A DNA stretch of 64,000 bases from Eledone cirrhosa (Eukaryota): contig CAXHJY010001592.1 of NCBI GenBank assembly GCA_964016885.1, positions 8,071 to 72,070 of the forward strand, given 5' to 3'. The translations under genes and the position numbers were made by a program. How positions within the stretch are numbered: position 1 is the stretch's first letter; each line of letters opens with the position of its first letter. Below are positions 2,869 to 64,000 of this stretch, piece by piece. The notes under the pieces were generated by a model. It saw nothing but the letters and a program-made list of their open reading frames with translations. It ran no database searches and was not told the DNA's origin.

Positions 2869-3010
2869 TGGATTGGCAGTATCGGTAGAGGGTCGGACGC
2901 CATGCTTTCCAGCATAGTTACGTCCCTTTAAGATCTGAGTTCAAATCCCGCCGAGGTTTACTTTGCCTTTTATCCTTACGGGGTCGATAATATAAAGTAC
3001 CAGTAATGCA
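2869..3010 (+). mobile_element. tRNA-derived SINE with Nin/Deu-type central domain (truncated)
   Basis: A-box-like ggattggcagtatcggtagag, B-box gagttcaaatcc, and central tttgccttt(t/c)atccttacggggtcgataa. Confidence 0.85.
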
Positions 3011-4058
3011 TCCAGCAAATAGCTAACTCCATCCACCAGAGTATTATAGTTACTATAGACTACCCAAGCAAACACTCCAACCATCGATTACCTGTACTAG
3101 ACACAGAGCTCTGGTTAGATACCATTAATAACAAAAAACAAATCCTCCATTCCCATTATGCCAAACCCATGACTTCCAAATATCTGATCCACCGAAACTC
3201 AGCTGTTTCGGACCATACCAACATCAACATACAGATTGCGGATTTCGTACGGGTGATGAGAAACGTGTCCCGCATGTGCAACCCCGAAGAACTAGAGAGA
3301 CACATACAACACTTCATCCACCGTATGCAGTTCTCTGGTTACAATCAGAGAGATAAAATCAGAGTGTATAGAGGAGCCAGAACCAAATGGGAAAAAATGG
3401 TAAATAATGACACAAATGGGACCTGCCCCTTGTATAAGAGCAAATTTTGGAATAGAATAGAAAGAACTAGGAATAAGGCTAATAGAATAAACTCATGGTA
3501 TGATAGCAATAAATACCAGAGTGTAATGTTCATCGATACAACCCCTAGAGGTGAAATAGCTTACAAATTTAGAAGGGCCCTAGATAAACATAAACTCAAT
3601 ATTAAGATAGTAGAAAGACCAGGTACCTCCATAAAAACACTTATTAGCAAGGCATACCCTTTTCAAAGACCCCCTGTATAGATAAGAAATGTATAACCTG
3701 TAAATTATGCCCCCGTATTAACTGTAAAACTAGAAATGTAGTATAAAGCATAAGATGTACTGAAGGACAATGTAGAGACAAAAATATAGTGTACATAGGT
3801 GAGACAGCTCGTAGTATAGAGGAACGGATAAATGAACACTGGCGAGACCTTCAAGATAGTAAAGAATCATCTGTACTCTACCAACATGCTAAAATAGAAC
3901 ACAAGGGTAAATTAGAGAACATAGAAATAAAAATGGAATCTACACACAGAAAAGATGCAATGTTTAGACAAATCACAGAGGCAATAAACATAAAAGAATT
4001 ACAACCAAAATTAAATAGAAAATATGAGTGGAACAGCAACATCACAACTTACAATTAA
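3010..4058 (+). pseudogene. Penelope-like element 3' fragment: RT C-terminus, Cys-rich linker and GIY-YIG endonuclease, with stop codons
   Basis: ORF 3169-3681 (HRMQFSGY...SVMFIDTTPRGEIA...IKIVERPG) is followed by CITCKLC...CKTRNVV and YIGETARSIEERINEH...RQITEAINIKELQPKLNRK. Confidence 0.9.
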
Positions 4059-7214: not shown

Positions 7215-7297
<83 letters not shown>

Positions 7298-7584
7298 AAC
7301 AAATAACGAAACGAAATTAAATTTCGTTTCGCTTCTAACTCACTTTTGTATGACTGACACTTAAACAATTAAGTTAAAGTGTACATCCACATATGTATAC
7401 GGAAGTATTAGTATGCATATAAATACACACATGTATACATATGTACATGTACTGAGTTTTTCACTAGACACTTTACAGTGAGTGTCAGCTAGTCTGTATG
7501 TAACCACACAGATGGACCGGGTTTTAGAGTCATACGAGTTTTCAAGGAAAAACATTTCCTCTATTCTCCAGAGGGCCAGACAGG

Positions 7585-7628
7585 AATATTGGACTAGTTT
7601 CGATGTATTACATCTCATCAGCAATATT
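7585..7628 (-). ncRNA. Minimal hammerhead ribozyme, family 1
   Basis: Reverse complement of the 8419-8463 motif with a 1-nt deletion in stem-loop II. Confidence 0.8.
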
Positions 7629-8052
7629 TACCCATCTTCCGGCTTCTCTGGAGAATTGTAAAAGCACATATCGTTATATGCTTTTTCTATGAAAATTAGT
7701 AGTGGGTAGACCAATTTGCATAGAACGTGAGTTATTGTACGCACCGGTTCAGCGGAAACGATAAAAACAAATAACGAAACGAAATTAAATTTCGTTTCGC
7801 TTCTAACTCACTTTTGTATGACTGACGCTTAAACAATTAAGTTAAAGTGTACATCTACATATGTATACGGAAGTATTAGTATGCATATAAATACACACAT
7901 GTATACATATGTACATGTACTGAGTTTTTCACTAGACACTTTACAGTGAGTGTCAGCTAGTCTGTATGTAACCACACAGATGGACCGGGTTTTAGAGTCA
8001 TACGAGTTTTCAAGGAAAAACATTTCCTCTATTCTCCAGAGGGCCAGACAGG

Positions 8053-8097
8053 AATATTGGACTAGTTTCGATGTTATTACATCTCATCAGCAATATT
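8053..8097 (-). ncRNA. Minimal hammerhead ribozyme, family 1
   Basis: Exact reverse complement of the 8419-8463 motif. Confidence 0.85.
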
Positions 8098-8418
8098 TAC
8101 CCATCTTCCGGCTTCTCTGGAGAATTGTAAAAGCACATATCGTTATATGCTTTTTCTATGAAAATTAGTAGTGGGTAGACCAATTTGCATAGAACGTGAG
8201 TTATTGTACGCACCGGTTCAGCGGAAACGATAAAAACAAATAACGAAACGAAATTAAATTTCGTTTCGCTTCTAACTCACTTTTGTATGACTGACGCTTA
8301 AACAATTAAGTTAAAGTCACGTTCTATGCAAATTGGTCTACCCACTACTAATTTTCATAGAAAAAGCATATAACGATATGTGCTTTTACAATTCTCCAGA
8401 GAAGCCGGAAGATGGGTA

Positions 8419-8463
8419 AATATTGCTGATGAGATGTAATAACATCGAAACTAGTCCAATATT
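8419..8463 (+). ncRNA. Minimal hammerhead ribozyme, family 1
   Basis: aatattg-CTGATGA-GATGT aata ACATC-GAAA-CTAG-TC-caatatt: full catalytic core, 7-bp stem I, palindromic CTAG in place of stem III, GUC cleavage triplet. Confidence 0.9.
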
Positions 8464-8890
8464 CCTGTCTGGCCCTCTGGAGAATAGAGGAAATGTGTTT
8501 CCTTGAAAACTCGTATGACTCTAAAACCCGGTCCGTCTGTGTGGTTACATACAGACTAGCTGTAAACACTCACTGTAAAGTGTCTAGTGAAAAACTCAGT
8601 ACATGTACATATGTATACATGTGTGTATTTATATGCATACTAATACTTCCGTATACATATGTAGATGTACACTTTAACTTAATTGTTTAAGCGTCAGTCA
8701 TACAAAAGTGAGTTAGAAGCGAAACGAAATTTAATTTCGTTTCGTTATTTGTTTTTATCGTTTCCGCTGAACCGGTGCGTACAATAACTCACGTTCTATG
8801 CAAATTGGTCTACCCACTACTAATTTTCATAGAAAAAGCATATAACGATATGTGCTTTTACAATTCTCCAGAGAAGCCGGAAGATGGGTA

Positions 8891-8935
8891 AATATTGCTG
8901 ATGAGATGTAATAACATCGAAACTAGTCCAATATT
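8891..8935 (+). ncRNA. Minimal hammerhead ribozyme, family 1
   Basis: Same motif as 8419-8463. Confidence 0.9.
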
Positions 8936-9159
8936 CCTGTCTGGCCCTCTGGAGAATAGAGGAAATGTGTTTCTTTGAAAACTCGTATGACTCTAAAACC
9001 CGGTCCGTCTGTGTGGTTACATACAGACTAGCTGACACTCACTGTAAAGTGTCTAGTGAAAAACCCAGTACATGTACATATGTATACATGTGTGTATTTA
9101 TATGCATACTAATACTTCCGTATACATATGTAGATGTACACTTTAACTTAATTATATAT

Positions 9160-9540
9160 AGTATTAAGGATACTATTTATGGTTATGTATATACTAAAAC
9201 TTTTTATAGTTATAATAATCTTATATAAATAAAATACACATGCATGCCCCACGTGTAACTATTGCATACACTAACTACTTCAAACTGTCCTCTTGCATTA
9301 TCTTCGTAAACTGCCGATGTTGTATTTTAACTTTAATTTTGTTTTAATATGATTTTAATTTTTGAATATAAATTGGCATGCAAAAATATTATAATGGACG
9401 TAACCCCACCGTGCATCGATATATACATATGTTTCTGCATGTCTCTTGTGTTGGAAAGGAGGTCATGTATGTAAACAATCATTGAAAAATTGCTCCGAAG
9501 ACTCCAAACCTCGGTTTGGACGAAACTATTGATTCATGTG

Positions 9541-19302: not shown

Positions 19303-19711
19303 GGGAGAGATGACCCCTTAGCCTTTGTCAAGGCAGAATTCTAGGAGAAGGAAAACTCTGATATAGCACCTGCAACCCTGATGGTATCCAATGATGTTGA
19401 CTTGTTCTTCTTTTTGGTAAATATCATCTTGGTTAAGAGAGTGGGACTGGCTTTGTGCAGTGCCTTTGCTCACTATAAAAGCTTCACGGCACAAGCATTG
19501 CTTTATATCTGGAGATCTCTCTGCACTTGTCGTCACATGGTCCCATGGGCCCAGCACTAAGTGTCAATAATTGTCACAAGTGTAGTGTTTGTACCAGAGT
19601 TTTCAAGTCGCTGGCTGGACTAAAAAGTCACACTCGTTCAGCGCATCGGTAGGGGTTCTCCTACATGGATATAAAGTAGTGGCCGTACTCGAAAACGAGT
19701 TGGCAGCCACG
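19303..19711 (+). mobile_element. Non-autonomous bipartite RTE-derived element, 5'-truncated copy
   Basis: RTE 5'-UTR-like motif tctaggagaaggaaaactctga joined to a 3' end encoding [24 protein letters not shown]; hairpin actcg-aaaa-cgagt; (ATGT)n tail. Confidence 0.75.
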
Positions 19712-19778: not shown

Positions 19779-20385
19779 TCAGGTCACCAGTTGGTGCTAC
19801 TGGTAACATGTATGCCAGTACAACCCGTCTCATGGTCGGGTCGTTGGCGACTAAACTGGCAACCCCACCAATGTTTCTTGGTGAGGAGGGTGACTTTCGA
19901 CACCCTGCAGGACTAAAAACAAAACCTGTCAAAGGGCAAAGGAGCTCTTAAGAGTCAATGGCCATCCAAAATCACCGGGAGAGATGACCCCTTAGCCTTT
20001 GTCAAGGCAGAATTCTAGGAGAAGGAAAACTCTGATATAACAGCTGCAACTCTGATGGTATCCAATGATGTTGACTTGTTCTTCTTTTTGGTAAATATCA
20101 TCTTGGTTAAGAGAGTGGGACTGGCTTTGTGCAGTGCCTTTGCTCACTATAAAAGCTTCACGGCACAAGCATTGCTTTGTGTCTGGAGATCTCTCTGCAC
20201 TTGTCGTCACATGGTACCATGGTCCCAGCACTATGTGTCAATAATTGTCATAAGTGTAGTGTTTGTACCAGAGTTTTCAAGTCGCTGGCTGGACTAAAAA
20301 GTCACACTCGTTCAGCGCATCGGTAGGAATTCTCCCACATGGATATAAAGTAGTGGCCGTACTCGAAAACGAGTTGGCAGCCACC
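19779..20385 (+). mobile_element. Non-autonomous bipartite RTE-derived element, longest copy (~600 bp)
   Basis: Same sequence as 19303-19711 plus ~200 bp more at the 5' end; no RT or APE coding region between the two halves. Confidence 0.75.
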
Positions 20386-21018: not shown

Positions 21019-21410
21019 TCAAAGGGCAAAGGAGCTCTTAAGAGTCAATGGCCATCCAAAATCACCGGGAGAGATGACCCCTTAGCCTTTGTCAAGGCAG
21101 AATTCTAGGAGAAGGAAAACTCTGATATAGCACCTGCAACCCTGATGGTATCCAATGATGTTGACTTGTTCTTCTTTTTGGTAAATATCACCTTGGTTAA
21201 GAGAGTGGGACTGGCTTTGTGCTGTGCCTTTGCTCACTATAAAAGCTTCACAGCACAGGCATTGCTTTATATCTGGAGATCTCTCTGCACTTGTCGTCAC
21301 ATGGTACCATGGGCCCAGCACTATGTGTCAATAATCGTCACAAGTGTAGTGTTTGTACGAGAGTTTTCAAGTCGCTGGCTGGACTAAAAAGTCACACTCG
21401 TTCAGCGCAT
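21019..21410 (+). mobile_element. Non-autonomous bipartite RTE-derived element, truncated copy
   Basis: Near-identical to 19930-20320. Confidence 0.75.
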
Positions 21411-22957: not shown

Positions 22958-24640
<1,683 letters not shown>

Positions 24641-24661
24641 TAAATAATAATTTTTTTCTGT

Positions 24662-25332
24662 ATACGAGAATAAATCCAGGATGCAGTTGCAGGAAGCCGG
24701 ATGAATGCCCATTGCAGGGTAAATGTAACACCAAATCTGTTGTTTATGAGGCTAAGATAACACCGGTAATCAACAACCAGCCAGCCAGGAGTGAGCGATA
24801 TGTCGGTATGACCCAGGACAGGTTTAAAACCAGATTTTACTCACATGTCGCTTCTTTTAAGCACTCCGATAAACGAACATCAACACCCCTCGCAAGTAAG
24901 GTGTGGGAACTCAAGGATAGTAACATCCCGTACTCTATTGATTGGTCTATATTAGACCATTCGAGCGAGTACCAAAGGGGCACGAAGAATTGTTCTTTGT
25001 GTACCACAGAAAAGTATAGGATTTTGCTAAAATTGAGAGCCACTTCCGCTTGCCTTAACTCAAAGACTGAGATCTTCAGTTGCTGTCCTCATCTGAAATC
25101 GCATCTGATCTGTAACTGGATTGACACTCCTATGATAAATCAACCGCCTTGAACTCCTTCTCTGCTCTTTACTTCTGGTACGGTTTTTATTTTGCTGAAT
25201 CTACGTTCTGTACTCTTGTATATATATTTTTTTCTCCCTTACCTCCCCTTATATTTCACCTTTTCCTATGTCCCCCCCCCCCATATATTCTTTTTGCCTT
25301 GCCCTTCACATACCTATGTGTATGTGTATGTG

Positions 25333-28138: not shown

Positions 28139-28153
28139 TATATATATATATAT

Positions 28154-28672
28154 AAACGGAAAAAATGAAACGAAATTTCATTTCCCACTCTTAGTACGAC
28201 TGTTACTTAAATATAAGTATGTACACGTACATACATATATGTATACAGACGTACAGTAGTATGTATATATATATACATACATGCACACATATATATATAT
28301 ATGTACGTATGGATTCACCGAACATTTATTATAATGCTCGGTGTGTTTGTAAACAAACATCCCGTATTAAGCCGTAGTATCCAGCAACCATCGTTGCTCG
28401 TTTTTTCAACACTGACAAAGGAACGCTGTACTAGTTTCAAGCTTATTAGCTATCGTCAGCAACGTATACCTTCCTGCCAGATTGTTGAACGTATATACTT
28501 ACCTTATGCATATTAACGGCTGAGTAGCCCAATTTGCATATCGAGTGGGTTAATTAGCCGGGTGCACCGAAAACGATAAACGGAAAAATGAAACGATATT
28601 TCATTTCCCACTCTTAGTACAGCTGTTACTTAAATATAAGTATGTACACGTACATACATATATGTACGTGTA
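28154..28672 (-). mobile_element. ~424-bp HHR-containing tandem unit, ~1.2 copies (retrozyme-like, family 2)
   Basis: Unit start aaacggaaaaatgaaacg recurs at 28154 and 28578. Shares ccaatttgcata, ccgg..ca.cg.aaacgataaa and a hairpin with family 1. Confidence 0.75.
28423..28465 (-). ncRNA. Minimal hammerhead ribozyme, family 2
   Basis: Minus strand reads acgttg-CTGACGA-tagct aata agctt-GAAA-CTAG-TA-cagcgt. Confidence 0.8.
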
Positions 28673-36800: not shown

Positions 36801-36838
36801 GAAATATAAGAATCAAAGAACTGTTCAAAACATTATTG

Positions 36839-36885
36839 TGCTTACAGCTGTTTCCTCCAAACCGAGGTTTGGATTCTTCGGAGCA
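36839..36885 (-). ncRNA. Hammerhead variant (CCGAAGA core) in the PLE tail
   Basis: Reverse complement of 41781-41827. Confidence 0.65.
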
Positions 36886-38328
36886 ATTTATTAATGCATG
36901 GACAGTTATATGACCTCCTTTTCAGCCGAGAGACATACCAATACATATTCAAACATTGATACATATTCAAACATTGTGGGTCAACATTCATTACAAAATT
37001 TAGAGTGGCAGTACACACTTCGAGATTACATTTATATTAATAGGTACAATCAAAAATCAAAGATATAGGTTAAAGTACAACATGAAGATAAGTGGTTATA
37101 TAGTGCAAATGTTATATGTGTGGCACGCATGTGCGTCTTGTTTATATAGTGTGGCAGAGAGATATGTGTGGTAGAGGCACTTAGGTAGGTAAATAAGAGT
37201 GTTAGGTTGGTAGATCTGGTGGCAAAGTCTTTATATGATTGATGTAGTCTGTGTGTGGAGAAATATTATAAGCATTAAAGATAGTGCAAGCATTAAAAGT
37301 GTTATAAGTATTGGAGATGCACAACGCAGGGATGTCAAGTAATTCATGTACTTCGGCATTTTCATGGTCAAGGGAGTGTATATTTCGATTATATGCCTTT
37401 CACATAATCCACGACAATCCAGTTAGAGATCGTAGTCTGGTGTTCTTTAGTTCGATACAGGAGGTTGTTACGTTTCGAGAGACGCCATTGAATACCGGAA
37501 GTGTGTGTGTGGCTAAGGGGAGTTAATGCATGCGGGGAGGTAACTCTGGGGTTTCTATATCTAGCCATTAAAATGTGTCCCAATATGGACCCTAAATTCT
37601 ATGGTGAGGTGCACCTTCCAAGAGAGACTTTTAAAGCATAAAGTGTACTAACTATAGAGTAGTTTAACTAAATTATGCTGAAGGTGATCATATTATTATT
37701 AAGGTGGATTAACCCATCTTAAGGTGCTACAAATGGAAATTATAGATGATGAGCGAGGATTCTAAATTAATGATCTCTGTGGTTGTAGTCTGCTCATATG
37801 ACCAGGCGCGGTGATTGCAGGATTGCTTCAGGACCCAATGATCTCTGGTAAGATCTGGGTCATCGCTTGCTACATTGGATGTCGAAAGATAATCGTCCCC
37901 AGGCAGGCCAAAGGTCAATCCGCAGTCCTCGCGACCCCTCTCTGACCGTCAGATCATCCATATACGTACAACCCGCACGGCAGTTGCATTGCATTCACTC
38001 ACTGCGCTCAGCAGCCCGGTCCTACTGGTCAACAGCGCTACTCGATTAAATCATTTTACATCTGTCTAAGGAAGGTGTTTCCTCTGCCCAACACCATCCA
38101 ACCGATCAATTCATGCTCAAATTACCCTTAGAGCGGTGTAGTGCCGTCCAGGTGGGTGGATGTTGTCACACCTGCCGTAGAGGTATAAATGGGTATTTTC
38201 CCTGCGAAGGGTTCCAGAGGGATGTCGTTGTTTGTGTTATAATGGATCAGCTAGTGTTGGGTATGTAGTATAGGGTGTGTCTCTGGTGTTTGATGCTAGA
38301 TGTGGTGTTAGGTTCCAGTCCGACATTG

Positions 38329-40680
38329 CTATATATAGGGCTTAAAGTTTTGGAAGGAATGTCTGAGGCGGTGTTGGCAAGTTGCAAACACCTCCGATTT
38401 TTTGTTAAGTAGGTTACGGTTGGAGAAGATAATATTGTGTGTCTCTAGTATACAGAGGTTACAGAATTTATTAGGTGGTTTGTACGAGGTCGCGCTGCCT
38501 ATCACTTCCCATTTGAGTGTGTATGGTTTATTTTTAGATTTTAGATAGTGTATGTAGCTAGAAAGTGAGGTGGAGTTGGCTAGGCTGTGCTTTTTGAACG
38601 AGTGGATGTGCGAGTTATATCTAATTTTGAAGCAGTTAGAAGTGGAGCCTACATAGGTTTCTGAAGAGTTATTAGTCGTGACTGTGCATGAGTATATGAC
38701 ATCCTTGGTTAGGCATTTTTTATCTAAAGGGCAGGTTCTATTAGCTCTACAGTTACAATTATTCTGTGCGTTAGTCCGCTGGTTATAATGCAATGCGGAA
38801 GTCTGTGTGGTGGATATAGGATTTTGGGTGTTCAGGTTGACAACCCTGGTGTTATTACTTATACTAGTGTTATTTCTATTGTTACTGCCGTTGCTATTGT
38901 TGCTTGCTACAGTGGTATTTAGAGGGTTTGCATCCCGTTGTGATTTTGTTTGTTGGAAGTAAGAACTAATTTTACTATTATTGCTGCTAGCTATGTGGTA
39001 TGCTAAGTTAGGCGTCGTAGAGTATGAGATTTTAATGGTGTTTTTGTTTAAGAGGTTGTGGTACTTGTGTCCTAGAGGGAAGTTTTTATCTAGTAGTGAG
39101 AAGAAAGCCCTAGGTATGTTGGTGGAGACATTTAGGTTGAAAGGAGGGTTGAAAAATGTATTATTTCTTCTTCTATTTTTGCTTTTAGTGTTTGGTGTGT
39201 TGCTTCCTCCTAAGGCCTCACAGTAGTTTCCATGGTAATGGTTACTTCCGGTGGCACCCTCCGCTTTGGTGTACTTGTGGTTGCTATTCCTATTATTAGA
39301 TTTCCTCATGGACATGTTGTGCGAGATGATGTTGTAGCTATGTGTTTTCTTAGGTAGGAACTCTATTTCTATATTATGGCCGGAGCTAGCTAATGCTTGA
39401 TTGTAATATTGTGAGTTTTTGCTAAATATGTTTGCGTCATAGGACAGACTAGAGATTCTATTGGACACCCCCTTAGAGATAGAGTTTAATATTGATCTAG
39501 GGTGATTAGACTTGGTATCTACGTAAATAAGTTTCTCATTAGGCTTATGGAAAGGTGTATATATTTTTGAGTCTAGGTATAGTGTGGCGTCAAGGAAGTT
39601 AACATTTTTAGTGTTTTTGTCCATGGTGATACTAAGGTTAAAGTTTTTGAATGTCTTATGCAGTTGTTTTCTAGTTCTTTCTATATTAAATTTTTTATAT
39701 TCTATGAGTAGAAGTGCATCATCGCGGTACAAACCACCGTTGAGGTAAGGGAGGTCTTTATGGATTTCATTGAGGAGGTATAGGCCGACCAAATCAGTGA
39801 CCTGCGCCGAGTCACTAGATCCCATGGTTATGTCGAAGTTGTTGTGCGTATCCTTGCGTGTCCATAGTTGGTCCTCGAAGGTGATTATGGTTTTACGGGC
39901 CGCAAGGATGACATCAACCTGGGCTCTAGTCAGGTCGCTATTGGTCATGGCCATGATAAGTGCCTTATTTAATAGGATAGGGGAAATAGAGGTGTAGTAT
40001 GAATTGATATCAAATTGAATAAATTTTTTGTTCTTATTATTCTTGATATCCTTAAACCATTCAATTACTTCACCCGTATTTCCCCATTGTTTAAGGTGTA
40101 TCTTGTGTTTAATTTGTGGGATGATTTTATCCAAAATCTTCTTGCTGATAATACCAATGTCGGACTTGGAAGGGCAGATAAGTCTTATCGTGGGGTTGCT
40201 GATGAAGTTCTCCTTATGGTCCTTCAGAGAGAATCTAGGGGGGTTCGGAGTGAAAGGTTGTGTATGCCTCTGTAGTCCTAGTTTAGACACTATATTATAA
40301 CCCTCTACATTAATATCTTCTAAGTTTTTCAAGGTGGTTTTTTTGTAGCTTTTATGTAGTTCATTATATATAAACTTTCTATAAGTAATATAATCTAGGC
40401 TGTATATGTTATTAGTTTTATCTGCGTGTACAATAATTTTATTACTAGTTTTGAATCCACTAATAGAAGTGTTAAGTTTGTTTAAGAAGGTGTTGCTTCT
40501 AATATGGTGCTTATTGTATTTAATGTTCTTAACTAGTTTAACTAGGTCATTTTCAAAGGAGTTAATTAGAGTGTTATGAGGGGGGCTTTTAAAGGTTTTA
40601 AAGCCGAAGGAGTCAAAATTGTTAGTATTATTCAAGTTGTTAGATTTGTTTCTATCATAATGGAATGTCCTCCATCTCAC
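38329..40680 (-). CDS. Penelope-like reverse transcriptase + C-terminal GIY-YIG endonuclease (783 aa, N-terminally truncated)
   Basis: ADKTNNIY, LKDHKENF...IRLICP, FIQFDINSYYTSI, TMGS, LYRDD, VNFLD, SNHP; CNC...CPLDKKC...VIY...YVGST...RYNSH; CNLCILE...LN..SE. No internal stops; GTG start only ~14 nt from the inversion junction. Confidence 0.95.
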   Translation of the reverse strand: MRWRTFHYDRNKSNNLNNTNNFDSFGFKTFKSPPHNTLINSFENDLVKLVKNIKYNKHHIRSNTFLNKLNTSISGFKTSNKIIVHADKTNNIYSLDYITYRKFIYNELHKSYKKTTLKNLEDINVEGYNIVSKLGLQRHTQPFTPNPPRFSLKDHKENFISNPTIRLICPSKSDIGIISKKILDKIIPQIKHKIHLKQWGNTGEVIEWFKDIKNNKNKKFIQFDINSYYTSISPILLNKALIMAMTNSDLTRAQVDVILAARKTIITFEDQLWTRKDTHNNFDITMGSSDSAQVTDLVGLYLLNEIHKDLPYLNGGLYRDDALLLIEYKKFNIERTRKQLHKTFKNFNLSITMDKNTKNVNFLDATLYLDSKIYTPFHKPNEKLIYVDTKSNHPRSILNSISKGVSNRISSLSYDANIFSKNSQYYNQALASSGHNIEIEFLPKKTHSYNIISHNMSMRKSNNRNSNHKYTKAEGATGSNHYHGNYCEALGGSNTPNTKSKNRRRNNTFFNPPFNLNVSTNIPRAFFSLLDKNFPLGHKYHNLLNKNTIKISYSTTPNLAYHIASSNNSKISSYFQQTKSQRDANPLNTTVASNNSNGSNNRNNTSISNNTRVVNLNTQNPISTTQTSALHYNQRTNAQNNCNCRANRTCPLDKKCLTKDVIYSCTVTTNNSSETYVGSTSNCFKIRYNSHIHSFKKHSLANSTSLSSYIHYLKSKNKPYTLKWEVIGSATSYKPPNKFCNLCILETHNIIFSNRNLLNKKSEVFATCQHRLRHSFQNFKPYI

Positions 40681-41780
40681 TCTATTGATAAATGTTGTAC
40701 GTATATGGATGATCTGACGGTCAGAGAGGGGTCGCGAGGACTGCGGATTGACCTTTGGCCTGCCTGGGGACGATTATCTTTCGACATCCAATGTAGCAAG
40801 CGATGACCCAGATCTTACCAGAGATCATTGGGTCCTGAAGCAATCCTGCAATCACCGCGCCTGGTCATATGAGCAGACTACAACCACAGAGATCATTAAT
40901 TTAGAATCCTCGCTCATCATCTATAATTTCCATTTGTAGCACCTTAAGATGGGTTAATCCACCTTAATAATAATATGATCACCTTCAGCATAATTTAGTT
41001 AAACTACTCTATAGTTAGTACACTTTATGCTTTAAAAGTCTCTCTTGGAAGGTGCACCTCACCATAGAATTTAGGGTCCATATTGGGACACATTTTAATG
41101 GCTAGATATAGAAACCCCAGAGTTACCTCCCCGCATGCATTAACTCCCCTTAGCCACACACACACTTCCGGTATTCAATGGCGTCTCTCGAAACGTAACA
41201 ACCTCCTGTATCGAACTAAAGAACACCAGACTACGATCTCTAACTGGATTGTCGTGGATTATGTGAAAGGCATATAATCGAAATATACACTCCCTTGACC
41301 ATGAAAATGCCGAAGTACATGAATTACTTGACATCCCTGCGTTGTGCATCTCCAATACTTATAACACTTTTAATGCTTGCACTATCTTTAATGCTTATAA
41401 TATTTCTCCACACACAGACTACATCAATCATATAAAGACTTTGCCACCAGATCTACCAACCTAACACTCTTATTTACCTACCTAAGTGCCTCTACCACAC
41501 ATATCTCTCTGCCACACTATATAAACAAGACGCACATGCGTGCCACACATATAACATTTGCACTATATAACCACTTATCTTCATGTTGTACTTTAACCTA
41601 TATCTTTGATTTTTGATTGTACCTATTAATATAAATGTAATCTCGAAGTGTGTACTGCCACTCTAAATTTTGTAATGAATGTTGACCCACAATGTTTGAA
41701 TATGTATCAATGTTTGAATATGTATTGGTATGTCTCTCGGCTGAAAAGGAGGTCATATAACTGTCCATGCATTAATAAAT

Positions 41781-41827
41781 TGCTCCGAAGAATCCAAACC
41801 TCGGTTTGGAGGAAACAGCTGTAAGCA
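41781..41827 (+). ncRNA. Hammerhead variant (CCGAAGA core) in the PLE tail
   Basis: tgct-CCGAAGA-atccaaacc tc ggtttggag-GAAA-CAGCTG-TA-agca; palindromic CAGCTG at stem III. Confidence 0.65.
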
Positions 41828-42345
41828 CAATAATGTTTTGAACAGTTCTTTGATTCTTATATTTCATATAACTGCTCTGTAAATCATCTGATGTTTTTAC
41901 ATTGAGCTACTTAACTTACTGGTAATAAGGTAGTAATACATTACTGCCTACCACTATTTAGGGTGTGTGTAAAATACTTACAACTGCTTAAGGTTTTGTG
42001 TTTACATAACCATAAATAGTATAACTAATACTATATATATATATAAACTAATTATCCATATTAAAAAAATTGTTTATAAGCCATAAATAAAAACGTACTT
42101 CCTCATCCGTTTTTACATGTCGTGGTCTTTGCCTATCAAGATCTCACGTTCAATCAACTACTACAACATCAAAAAACTATGTAGCCAAACCACAGTTGCC
42201 GTAATATGTGATTGAAAGCAACGATGCTTAATTTCATCAAATGCTTGCTAAAAAAAAAGACAACATATCGTTACCATATTTCTAATAAAAGATTCTGCCA
42301 ATGGTTTTCAATTCATTTTGAAAATAATCAATACTTTAGAGTGAT

Positions 42346-44470: not shown

Positions 44471-44528
44471 TATATATAATATATATATATATATTGGAAA
44501 ATGTGTGTAATCCTTGGTACAGTTAGGT

Positions 44529-45750
<1,222 letters not shown>

Positions 45751-48545: not shown

Positions 48546-48665
<120 letters not shown>

Positions 48666-48887
48666 AATTAAGTTAAAGATGTACATCCATATATGTATAC
48701 TGAAATACTAGTATGTATATGAATACACACACGTATACATATGTAGATGTACCAAGTTTTTTCACTGGTCACTTTACTGTGAGTGGCCAGCTATTCTGTA
48801 TGTAAACACACAGACAAACCGGTTTTTAGAGTCATACTGGTTTTTGAGGAAACACCTTTCCTCTATTCTCCAGAAAGCCAGACAAGG

Positions 48888-48932
48888 AATATTGAACTAG
48901 TTTCGTTGTTGTTACAACTCATCAGCAATATT
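48888..48932 (-). ncRNA. Minimal hammerhead ribozyme, family 1b
   Basis: Reverse complement of 49700-49744 with one loop change. Confidence 0.8.
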
Positions 48933-49699
48933 TACCTATCTTCCGGCCTTTCTAGAGAATCGTAAAAGCACATATCGTTATATGCTTTTTCTATGAAAAT
49001 TAGTAGTGGGCAGACTAATTTGCATAGAGTGTGAGTAAGTACCGGTTCAACGGAGACGATAAAAACAAATAACGAAACGAAATTAAATTTCGTTTCGTTT
49101 GTAACTCACTTTTGTATGACTGACGCTTAAACAATTAAGTTAAAGATGTACATCCATATATGTATACTGAAATACTAGTATGTATATGAATACACACACG
49201 TATACATATGTAGATGTACCAAGTTTTTTCACTGGTCACTTTACTGTGAGTGGCCAGCTATTCTGTATGTAAACACAGACAAACTGGCTTTCTGGAGAAT
49301 AGAGGAAAGGTGTTTCCTCAAAAACCAGTATGACTCTAAAAACCGGTTTGTCTGTGTGTTTACATACAGAATAGCTGGCCACTCACAGTAAAGTGACCAG
49401 TGAAAAAACTTGGTACATCTACATATGTATACGTGTGTGTATTCATATACATACTAGTATTTCAGTATACATATATGGATGTACATCTTTAACTTAATTG
49501 TTTAAGCGTCAGTCATACAAAAGTGAGTTACAAACGAAACGAAATTTAATTTCGTTTCGTTATTTGTTTTTATCGTCTCCGTTGAACCGGTACTTACTCA
49601 CACTCTATGCAAATTAGTCTGCCCACTACTAATTTTCATAGAAAAAGCATATAACGATATGTGCTTTTACGATTCTCTAGAAAGGCCGGAAGATAGGTA

Positions 49700-49744
49700 A
49701 ATATTGCTGATGAGTTGTAGCAACAACGAAACTAGTTCAATATT
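49700..49744 (+). ncRNA. Minimal hammerhead ribozyme, family 1b
   Basis: aatattg-CTGATGA-GTTGT agca ACAAC-GAAA-CTAG-TT-caatatt. Confidence 0.85.
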
Positions 49745-50414
49745 CCTTGTCTGGCTTTCTGGAGAATAGAGGAAAGGTGTTTCCTCAAAAACCAGTATGA
49801 CTCTAAAAACCGGTTTGTCTGTGTGTTTACATACAGAATAGCTGGCCACTCACAGTAAAGTGACCAGTGAAAAAACTTGGTACATCTACATATGTATACG
49901 TGTGTGTATTCATATACATACTAGTATTTCAGTATACATATATGGATGTACATCTTTAACTTAATTGTTTAAGCGTCAGTCATACAAAAGTGAGTTACAA
50001 ACGAAACGAAATTTAATTTCGTTTCGTTATTTGTTTTTATATATATATATATATATATACATACATACACATATACATTATCTCATACATAGGCCACATA
50101 CAAACATAAACACTGTAGTGTCAAATCAAGGTAGTTTATCAAGTTCAGTGCTATTTGCATTAGATCTTATATATTAGTTTCGGATTTAGACACAAGGCCA
50201 GCAATTTGGGACGAAGTGGAAGTTGATTGAATTATAATATAATTGACATGAAAAACAAACACATTCAATTTACTAAATCTCACAATGTCATGAAAAACCA
50301 TTGACATTATATAAAAAATAATTGAGCAATATCTAATAAAAACAAAGAACACTATTAAAGGGAGCAACAAAAGAAGAAAAAGGAAATGAAGAGAAGAAAG
50401 AGAAAAATGTGTCA

Positions 50415-55800: not shown

Positions 55801-56198
55801 TGTTTTCAACAAATGTCTATCCGTTGGTGTTTGTTAGGACTAGTTCCCTAAAGCCCTTCATTTATGTTTTCAAATTATTGTTGTGTGGTATGGACTCCGA
55901 ACAATTCGCATTATATTTTACAATGGTATTGAGGGGAGAGTGTTTTGTGTGTACTTGGTTGTTGGATTTCTGGCTGCTGCTGATGCTGTTGTTGTTACTG
56001 CTGTAGGTGGCAAATTAGCAGAGTCGTTTGAGCATCGGATTAAGTGCCTTAGTATTTGATTCGGTTCTTCTGCAAGGGGTTGCGACTGGCAGATAGTATT
56101 AGCCATGGAAAACCAATGGAAGTATAGTTTTCTTGGTCCGATTTAACCACTGGCCCCATGCTATTTTGTTGCGTATGTATGTATGTATGTATGTATGT

Positions 56199-56487
56199 AT
56201 CATCTTGGTTAAGAGAGTGGGACTGGCTTTGTGCAGTGTCTTTGCTCACTATAAAAGCTTCACGGCACAGGCATTGCTTTATATCTGGAAATCTCTCAGC
56301 ACTTGTCGTCACATGGTACCATGGGCCCAGCACTATGTGTCAATAATTGTCACAAGTGTAGTGTTTGTACCAGAGTTTTCAAGTCGCTGGCTGGACTAAA
56401 AAGTCACACTCGTTCAGCGCATCGGTAGGGGTTCTCCTACATGGATATAAAGTAGTGGCCGTACTCGAAAACGAGTTGGCAGCCACC
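56199..56487 (+). mobile_element. 5'-truncated copy of the bipartite RTE-derived element in (TATG)n
   Basis: Near-identical to 19422-19711. Confidence 0.8.

Positions 56488-60248: not shown

Positions 60249-64000
<3,752 letters not shown>

What the first reader, a model, noticed from the sequence alone, without database searches (positions are those of the whole stretch)
7297..9152. Candidate retrozyme family: ~469-bp non-coding tandem units, each with an intact minimal hammerhead, probably copied from a circular or multimeric RNA
Seen: every unit carries stemI-CTGATGA-stemII-GAAA-CTAG-TC-stemI. The arms are ~2.2 and ~1.8 units long, so each runs through the predicted cleavage site. Array ends do not coincide with that site; they fall at AT-rich positions (…aacttaatt|ata, …tatttgttt|ata) joined to (TA)n. 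Known: minimal HHRs with a palindromic stem III work as dimers in tandem repeats and PLE pLTRs, and non-LTR retrozymes yield circular RNAs. Inference: a cleaved linear monomer cannot template cDNA across its own cleavage site, so the template was a circRNA or an uncleaved multimer, reverse-transcribed in trans by a PLE. I do not know of this family being described, but cannot check.
Basis: partly seen in the sequence, partly recalled or inferred. Interest (0 to 1): 0.9.

Follow-up and report, generated by a model that had tools for sequence, protein, structure and literature searches.

The report
Hammerhead retrozyme with Penelope two-end footprint
A 469-base, protein-free repeat carrying a predicted self-cutting RNA motif sits here as two back-to-back runs that end at two fixed sites; it is likely a known kind of RNA parasite (a retrozyme) pasted in by a Penelope-type retrotransposon enzyme, and its cutting and RNA circle are untested.

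Summary
Window 7297-9153 is two head-to-head arms (2.2 and 1.8 units) of a non-coding 469-bp unit, with four type I hammerheads. The genome holds 9,455 exact matches to the ribozyme motif.

Of 53 two-armed insertions, 45 end at site A on one arm and site B (65-71 nt upstream) on the other; none is AA or BB. That is the Penelope-like (PLE) "tail" footprint. A young Hydra-clade PLE in the same window shows it too (14 of 14). The arms still run through the predicted cut site, so the template was a circle or an uncut multimer. DNA does not decide which: variants fixed across whole arrays favour a one-unit bottleneck, a few variants shared between arms favour multimers, and long arrays also grew as DNA.

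The ribozyme is canonical type I, not "minimal". The helper PLE was not identified; one Hydra chimera was found. Cleavage and circles are untested.

Verdict: new member of the known metazoan non-LTR retrozymes. This scan has already reported the same two-end pattern on other DNA of this genome.

The parts
7297..8317 (-). Left arm, 2.18 units; outer 3' end at fixed site A
8314..9153 (+). Right arm, 1.79 units; outer 3' end at fixed site B
8314..8317 (.). Inversion junction, 4-nt overlap (microhomology)
7297..7366 (-). 'Tail': the ~70 nt between sites B and A, present at the outer end of the left arm only; holds a strong hairpin
8414..8466 (+). Type I hammerhead; core starts 8426, predicted cut after 8456 (GUC)
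8886..8938 (+). Type I hammerhead; core starts 8898, predicted cut after 8928
8050..8102 (-). Type I hammerhead; core starts 8090
7582..7633 (-). Type I hammerhead with one base missing from loop 2; core starts 7621
7215..7296 (.). (TA)n target microsatellite, left flank
48661..50036 (.). Second insertion of the same family (subfamily ~88% identical), two-armed, B end left and A end right; hammerheads at 48925 (minus) and 49707 (plus)
28152..28666 (-). Copy of a sister family (422-433-bp unit, ~68% identical over part of the unit), one arm ending at its A site
36801..42032 (.). Young Hydra-type PLE insertion, two-armed; 814-aa open frame 38329-40773 (minus); its own two ends are 164 nt apart; candidate helper, not shown

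Best explanation
This is a non-coding, hammerhead-bearing repeat (a non-LTR retrozyme) that is likely copied into TA microsatellites by the enzyme of a Penelope-like retrotransposon, probably of the Hydra clade, which likely primes one cDNA from each cut DNA strand at two fixed internal RNA sites. Steps: (1) inferred: arrays are transcribed, the hammerheads cut as dimers and monomers are ligated to ~469-nt circles; (2) inferred: a PLE RT-endonuclease dimer nicks both strands of (TA)n; (3) shown as a footprint: one arm ends at site A, the other at site B, 65-71 nt apart; (4) shown: copying runs through the cut site and stops at random places; (5) inferred: the two cDNA ends anneal through 1-9 nt of microhomology, giving the head-to-head shape; (6) shown: some arms later expand as DNA. 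I put the template at about 55% circle, 35% uncut linear multimer, 10% other.
For: End census: 45 of 53 two-armed insertions are A+B, 0 AA, 0 BB, 8 with one odd end (three differently picked sets gave 24 of 29, 11 of 12, 10 of 12); chance under independent ends about 3e-14. 92 of 93 A or B ends abut TA-rich sequence by a loose criterion. The sister family ends at the homologous two sites. The Hydra PLE of this window shows one short and one long end in 14 of 14 copies with both ends in view, of 18 examined. A purified PLE protein cuts and extends both strands, starts at two internal RNA sites that bound the tail, and is predicted to be a dimer (PMC11167929). Junctions overlap by 1-9 nt in 33 of 53. 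Inner ends avoid no region and do not cluster at the cut (1 of 106 within 5 nt, 2.5 expected). Both arms share an array-wide variant in 25 of 27 arrays; 7 variants are unique to one array yet present in every covering unit of both arms. Selection acts at transmission: 0 of 16 core and stem III columns vary between subfamilies against 108 of 479 overall, the tail region 8 of 91, while inserted copies mutate in the core at the background rate (5.4 vs 4.9 per kb). The monomer folds as a circle at z = -8.4 with the hammerhead formed. No ORF above 84 codons. One chimeric insertion joins a retrozyme A arm to Hydra sequence whose opposite arm ends at the Hydra short end (L038).
Against: No cleavage or RNA was observed. 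Only 1 of 9 Xenopus retrozyme dimers cut in vitro, and PLE insertion in vitro did not need hammerhead cutting. Seven variants are shared by only some units of both arms (1.17 expected), weakly in register from the outer ends (5 vs 2.6, p about 0.03): this fits a mixed multimer or gene conversion, not a single monomer circle. No Hydra family with a homologous pLTR was found among 120 loci searched with a profile, and the window's Hydra PLE shares no sequence with the unit. The chimera is a single copy among 40 scored candidates with only 2 nt of overlap, and could be a deletion between neighbours. The census covers about 70 of probably thousands of insertions, and the largest set was picked by similarity.
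Confidence: 0.8

Rival explanations
1. Same PLE twin priming, but the template is an uncut linear read-through transcript of an existing array; the hammerhead is slow or blocked and no circle is needed.
For: Unprocessed RNA was the dominant substrate for a PLE in vitro. Seven partial variants are shared across arms, best in L033 where units 2 and 3 from each outer end carry the same change. 8 of 9 Xenopus dimers did not cut.
Against: Variants unique to one array but present in all its units need a one-unit bottleneck at some generation. The catalytic core is conserved between subfamilies. Related animal retrozymes accumulate as circles (PMC7229834).
Confidence: 0.3
2. One cDNA is made and folds back on itself (self-priming); the endonuclease then resolves the ends, which gives the inverted arm and the tail, as proposed for rotifer PLEs.
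For: Proposed in PMC3846280 (passages) and PMC8557442. It would also make both arms share variants.
Against: Inner ends of the two arms are not close in phase (3 of 53 within 25 nt, 5.8 expected). Either arm can be the longer (A 22, B 15). In L196 neither arm is contained in the other (one case). The tail was shown in vitro to come from two RT start sites.
Confidence: 0.1
3. These are truncated pLTR pieces of an autonomous PLE whose ORF was missed, later amplified as satellite DNA.
For: Xenopus retrozymes are homologous to pLTRs. DNA-level expansion is real. Two loci adjoin Hydra sequence (L032, L038).
Against: Units follow units directly and never run into an ORF in 53 two-armed insertions. 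In 29 other copies of the Hydra family beside L032 the downstream sequence is its own 3' region with a different hammerhead. Short two-armed insertions already cross the unit border.
Confidence: 0.07
4. A foldback DNA transposon or satellite spread without RNA.
For: Long inverted arms; very long single-strand arrays exist.
Against: The two ends are unequal and fixed, inner ends are randomly truncated, and an RNA structure is conserved with two-sided changes.
Confidence: 0.02

Closest known systems
Metazoan non-LTR retrozymes (Cervera and de la Pena 2020, PMC7229834; passages and parts 2 and 4 of 6 read, supplement not opened)
   Same: Short low-GC non-coding tandem units with one type I hammerhead each, thousands of dispersed copies, highly self-paired monomer, PLE proposed as helper.
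   Different: Unit 469 bp (their range 150-450). Two-armed insertions with two fixed ends are not described in the parts read ('inverted' occurs 0 times in the main text). They showed cleavage and circles; neither is shown here.
Vertebrate retrozymes as non-autonomous PLE derivatives (Li, Clavereau, Pollet 2026, bioRxiv 10.64898/2026.07.22.740005; parts 1-3 of 5 read, supplements closed)
   Same: Hammerhead tandem repeats (51-972 bp) that co-occur with PLEs.
   Different: Their link is pLTR homology and co-occurrence; no mollusc was sampled. Here the link is the insertion footprint, and no homologous pLTR was found.
PLE insertion mechanism, Poseidon of Anolis (Frangieh et al. 2024, PMC11167929; parts 1-2 of 4 read)
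   Same: Two internal start sites bounding a tail, AT-rich target, both strands extended.
   Different: Autonomous element; tail 30-40 nt against 65-71 here; start sites there are not homologous to the target, whereas site A here overlaps (TA)n by up to 4 nt.
Hydra clade of PLEs (Craig et al. 2021, PMC8557442; section 11 and passages read)
   Same: (TA)n targeting, canonical hammerheads, inverted 5'-truncated copy with a tail at one end.
   Different: Hydra elements encode RT and endonuclease; this unit encodes nothing. Non-autonomous head-to-tail elements are mentioned there for Chlamys.

Membership tests
Metazoan non-LTR retrozyme | Short tandem unit with a type I hammerhead in each copy | tested here: met
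   469-bp unit; 209 of 221 units examined keep core and stem III; Rfam HH9 E 1.9e-6
Metazoan non-LTR retrozyme | Non-coding, low GC, no LTR layout | tested here: met
   Longest stop-free frame 84 codons, GC 0.37; pure tandem arms. PBS and PPT were not scanned separately.
Metazoan non-LTR retrozyme | Many dispersed copies, dimers to long multimers | tested here: met
   9,455 motif matches; arrays from under 2 units to at least 40 kb
Metazoan non-LTR retrozyme | Self-cleavage of the transcript | not testable with these tools
   Only fold and conservation
Metazoan non-LTR retrozyme | Expressed as unit-length linear and circular RNA | not testable with these tools
   No read evidence was obtained; see Tried and rejected
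Metazoan non-LTR retrozyme | Target-site duplication when present | tested here: inconclusive
   Insertions lie in (TA)n, where a duplication cannot be read
PLE-mediated insertion | Inverted 5'-truncated copy, tail at one end only | tested here: met
   45 of 53 A+B, none AA or BB
PLE-mediated insertion | Identified autonomous partner sharing cis ends | tested here: inconclusive
   No homology in 120 loci; one chimera; at least 6,303 RT-motif matches exist, so most copies were not examined
Ordinary pLTR of an autonomous PLE | Repeat flanks an RT-endonuclease ORF | tested here: not met
   No ORF inside any two-armed insertion; two isolated adjacencies only
min-HHR of PLEs (PMC4209133, passages read) | Helix II 7-8 bp, helix I 4-5 bp, extra base before helix II, helix III dispensable | tested here: not met
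   Helix II 5 bp, helix I 7 bp plus extension, no extra base, helix III 2 bp with palindromic loop = canonical type I
Hydra clade (for the PLE at 36801-42032) | RWK-like motif, DKT, CxCx5C linker, C-terminal GIY-YIG without CCHH, (TA)n target | tested here: met
   Read by eye from the translation (RWR, DKT, CxCx5C) against the text; no tree was built; Pfam gave no hit

The most novel reading that the evidence does not exclude
A monomeric 469-nt hammerhead circle is the template: one Hydra-clade RT-endonuclease dimer nicks both strands of (TA)n, its two subunits start at sites A and B of the same circle and roll round it, so each insertion is a direct DNA record of twin-primed rolling-circle reverse transcription, and the young Hydra family in this window is the helper.
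Probability: 0.25. Interest if true: 0.65.

Novelty: new member of a known kind. Interest (0 to 1): 0.4.

Why it matters
How animal retrozymes move has only been proposed, and PLE integration is poorly understood. A short protein-free RNA that leaves a strict one-A, one-B footprint is a ready minimal substrate: it predicts two start sites, a ~70-nt cis element and dimer action, all testable with the existing in vitro PLE assay. With its sister family it accounts for more than 25,000 ribozyme motifs in one genome. The class, the PLE link and the one-sided tail are all in print, and this scan has noted the pattern before, so the gain is a sharper test and not a new system.

Tried and rejected
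RNA: no RNA holder listed (7 runs, all contigs); no reads were laid, so expression is open either way.
Rfam gathering search: 0 hits.
Helper search: the window's Hydra PLE has no DNA similarity to the unit. The Hydra fragment beside L032 was rejected as a partner, because the array sits where that older family has a TA-rich stretch and 29 other copies carry their own hammerhead. Two hammerheads 4.2 kb apart proved to lie inside a long array. 40 loci from about 18 RT-motif variants showed only independent retrozyme insertions nearby; the output was cut and only part was seen. L307 looked chimeric but is separated by a B end and a TA run.
One search used a mis-registered structure string and is discarded; one search is the corrected count, on 9 sequences that I picked.
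The dimer cofold is more stable than two monomers (-38.8 vs -30.4 kcal/mol), but its structure was not inspected, so it is not used.
Variant tests left out the other subfamily (W2, L056) and, six loci that are not cleanly two-armed. Searches count slightly differently (37 of 43; 45 of 53 with 18 more loci and a two-unit reference).
Literature: searches found no paper describing an octopus retrozyme family or paired fixed ends in retrozymes; subscription papers, Repbase and Dfam were not searchable, and supplements were not read (the Hydra HHR file of PMC8557442 and Fig. S9 of PMC7229834 could bear on this).
Host: probably an octopus, from a recalled SINE-like repeat, genome size and earlier AI notes; not tested.

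Full report
Observation. The stretch 7297-9153 is two arms of a 469-bp unit, head to head: 7297-8317 reads sense on the minus strand (2.18 units) and 8314-9153 on the plus strand (1.79 units), overlapping by 4 nt. Four hammerhead cores are present. Helix I has 7 bp plus an extension, helix II 5 bp, helix III 2 bp with a palindromic loop; 90% of cells pair and 6 of 17 pairs change on both sides across nine sequences of related families. Rfam finds HH9 at E 1.9e-6, below gathering. By the definitions in PMC4209133 (passages) this is a canonical type I ribozyme expected to need a dimer, not a min-HHR. The unit has no frame above 84 codons and 37% GC.

Family. The 3.0-Gb genome has at least 443 BLAST matches and 9,455 exact matches to the ribozyme pattern, control 0. 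Subfamilies are 87-100% identical; a second insertion lies at window 48661-50036. A sister family with a 422-433-bp unit gives 16,164 matches to a second pattern, control 1 (the first 100 rows were seen) and has a copy at 28152-28666.

Ends are fixed. I mapped three sets of loci, picked by full-unit similarity, by position on the first chromosome, and by a short probe. Of 53 two-armed insertions, 45 have one arm ending at site A and the other at site B, 65-71 nt upstream; none is AA or BB; 8 have one odd end. A further 24 arms were single; several have a short stub of the complementary end. Nearly all A and B ends abut TA-rich DNA (92 of 93, loose criterion). The sister family ends at the homologous positions. 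Inner ends are scattered, do not cluster at the cut site, and mostly overlap by 1-9 nt.

This is the PLE footprint. PLE insertions often have an inverted truncated copy and a tail at one end (PMC8557442; PMC3846280), and a purified PLE protein extends both target strands from two internal RNA sites that bound the tail (PMC11167929). The window itself holds a Hydra-type PLE (36801-42032; motifs read). Its family is young: 150 of 150 scored hits are 100% identical over the endonuclease part, many in 832-codon frames, and 3' regions are 97.5-99.8% identical. Its copies end at two sites 164 nt apart, one of each in 14 of 14 copies with both ends in view.

Template. Most arms cross the predicted cut (33 of 37 A arms, 34 of 37 B arms), so a cut linear monomer is excluded unless the enzyme jumps templates repeatedly. 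For a one-unit bottleneck: 25 of 27 arrays share an array-wide variant in both arms; seven variants unique to one array occur in every covering unit of both arms; units differ by 2.1 changes within an arm, 2.9 across arms and 5.9 between arrays. For mixed multimers or conversion: seven variants are shared by only some units of both arms, against 1.17 expected, weakly in register from the outer ends. Length is no proof of rolling circle: blocks of units are duplicated within arms, and one array spans at least 40 kb. The monomer folds as a circle far better than 40 shuffles (z = -8.4) with the hammerhead formed, but that does not separate circle from multimer.

Selection. Between subfamilies the core and stem III do not vary (0 of 16 columns, against 108 of 479), and the tail region varies little (8 of 91); inserted copies mutate in the core at the background rate. 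So the ribozyme and the tail matter when the element is copied, not after it lands.

Helper. Not identified. The window's Hydra family shares no sequence with the unit, nor did any of about 18 sampled RT-motif variants. One insertion, L038, has a retrozyme A arm joined in sense to that Hydra family's 3' region, with the opposite arm ending at the Hydra short end. It is single and may be a template switch or a deletion.

Comparison and novelty. It meets every DNA-testable feature of the metazoan non-LTR retrozymes (PMC7229834; bioRxiv 2026); cleavage and circles could not be tested. It is not an ordinary pLTR. Five literature searches found no description of this family or of paired fixed ends in retrozymes, within a library that lacks most subscription papers and Repbase. 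Earlier notes of this scan report the same two-end pattern and similar families in this and related genomes; they are AI notes and not independent support. I had mapped the fixed ends before reading them.

Verdict. Real, well formed, a new member of a known kind. PLE-driven two-site priming about 0.8; circle as template about 0.55 given that. Interest 0.4.

Noticed in passing
window 36801-42032: Young two-armed Hydra-type PLE with ~4.2-kb unit and a hammerhead with a CCGAAGA core; both of its fixed ends are followed in the RNA by the same short motif (AACTGCTC), a candidate start signal.
   Followed up: partly
L038:3321-5548 (G000 C376): Chimeric two-armed insertion: retrozyme A arm plus Hydra 3' region, opposite arm ending at the Hydra short end.
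   Followed up: partly
G000 C1:95631000-95670999 (L358, L223, L224, L359): At least 40 kb single-strand array of the unit with a 9-unit duplication: a retrozyme turned satellite. Neither end was reached.
   Followed up: partly
window 28152-28666; L071-L100: Sister retrozyme family whose hammerhead has U opposite U at the first pair of helix II in place of G-C, and cut triplet GUA; a further variant (L194, L307, L329) has an internal (TA)n of varying length inside the unit.
   Followed up: partly
window 49707; L167, L180: The ~88% subfamily has cut triplet GUU and a compensatory change in helix II; across families the triplet is GUC, GUU or GUA, never GUG.
   Followed up: yes
window 23757-25314: Two-armed fragment of a second Hydra-type PLE (endonuclease end only).
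   Followed up: no
window 639, 4274, 4696, 9490-9530, 21646, 23573, 25478, 27303, 28055, 59990: Other hammerhead-like motifs, several near TA runs; some match 3' ends of other Hydra families.
   Followed up: partly
window 3007-3681: Fragment resembling the C-terminal RT part of a Naiad-type PLE (label recalled, not tested).
   Followed up: no
window 19304-19710, 19929-20385, 21019-21410, 56198-56487: Four near-identical (96-98%) copies of an unidentified ~400-bp repeat, each set in microsatellite.
   Followed up: no
window 44528-45655: A 1.1-kb near-perfect inverted repeat with a 15-nt spacer, unrelated to the retrozyme.
   Followed up: no
L161:8211-8773: One insertion of the family lies in a (CAT)n repeat in place of (TA)n.
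   Followed up: no
window 60249-64000: 3.7 kb of degenerate (TA)n reaching the end of the contig.
   Followed up: no
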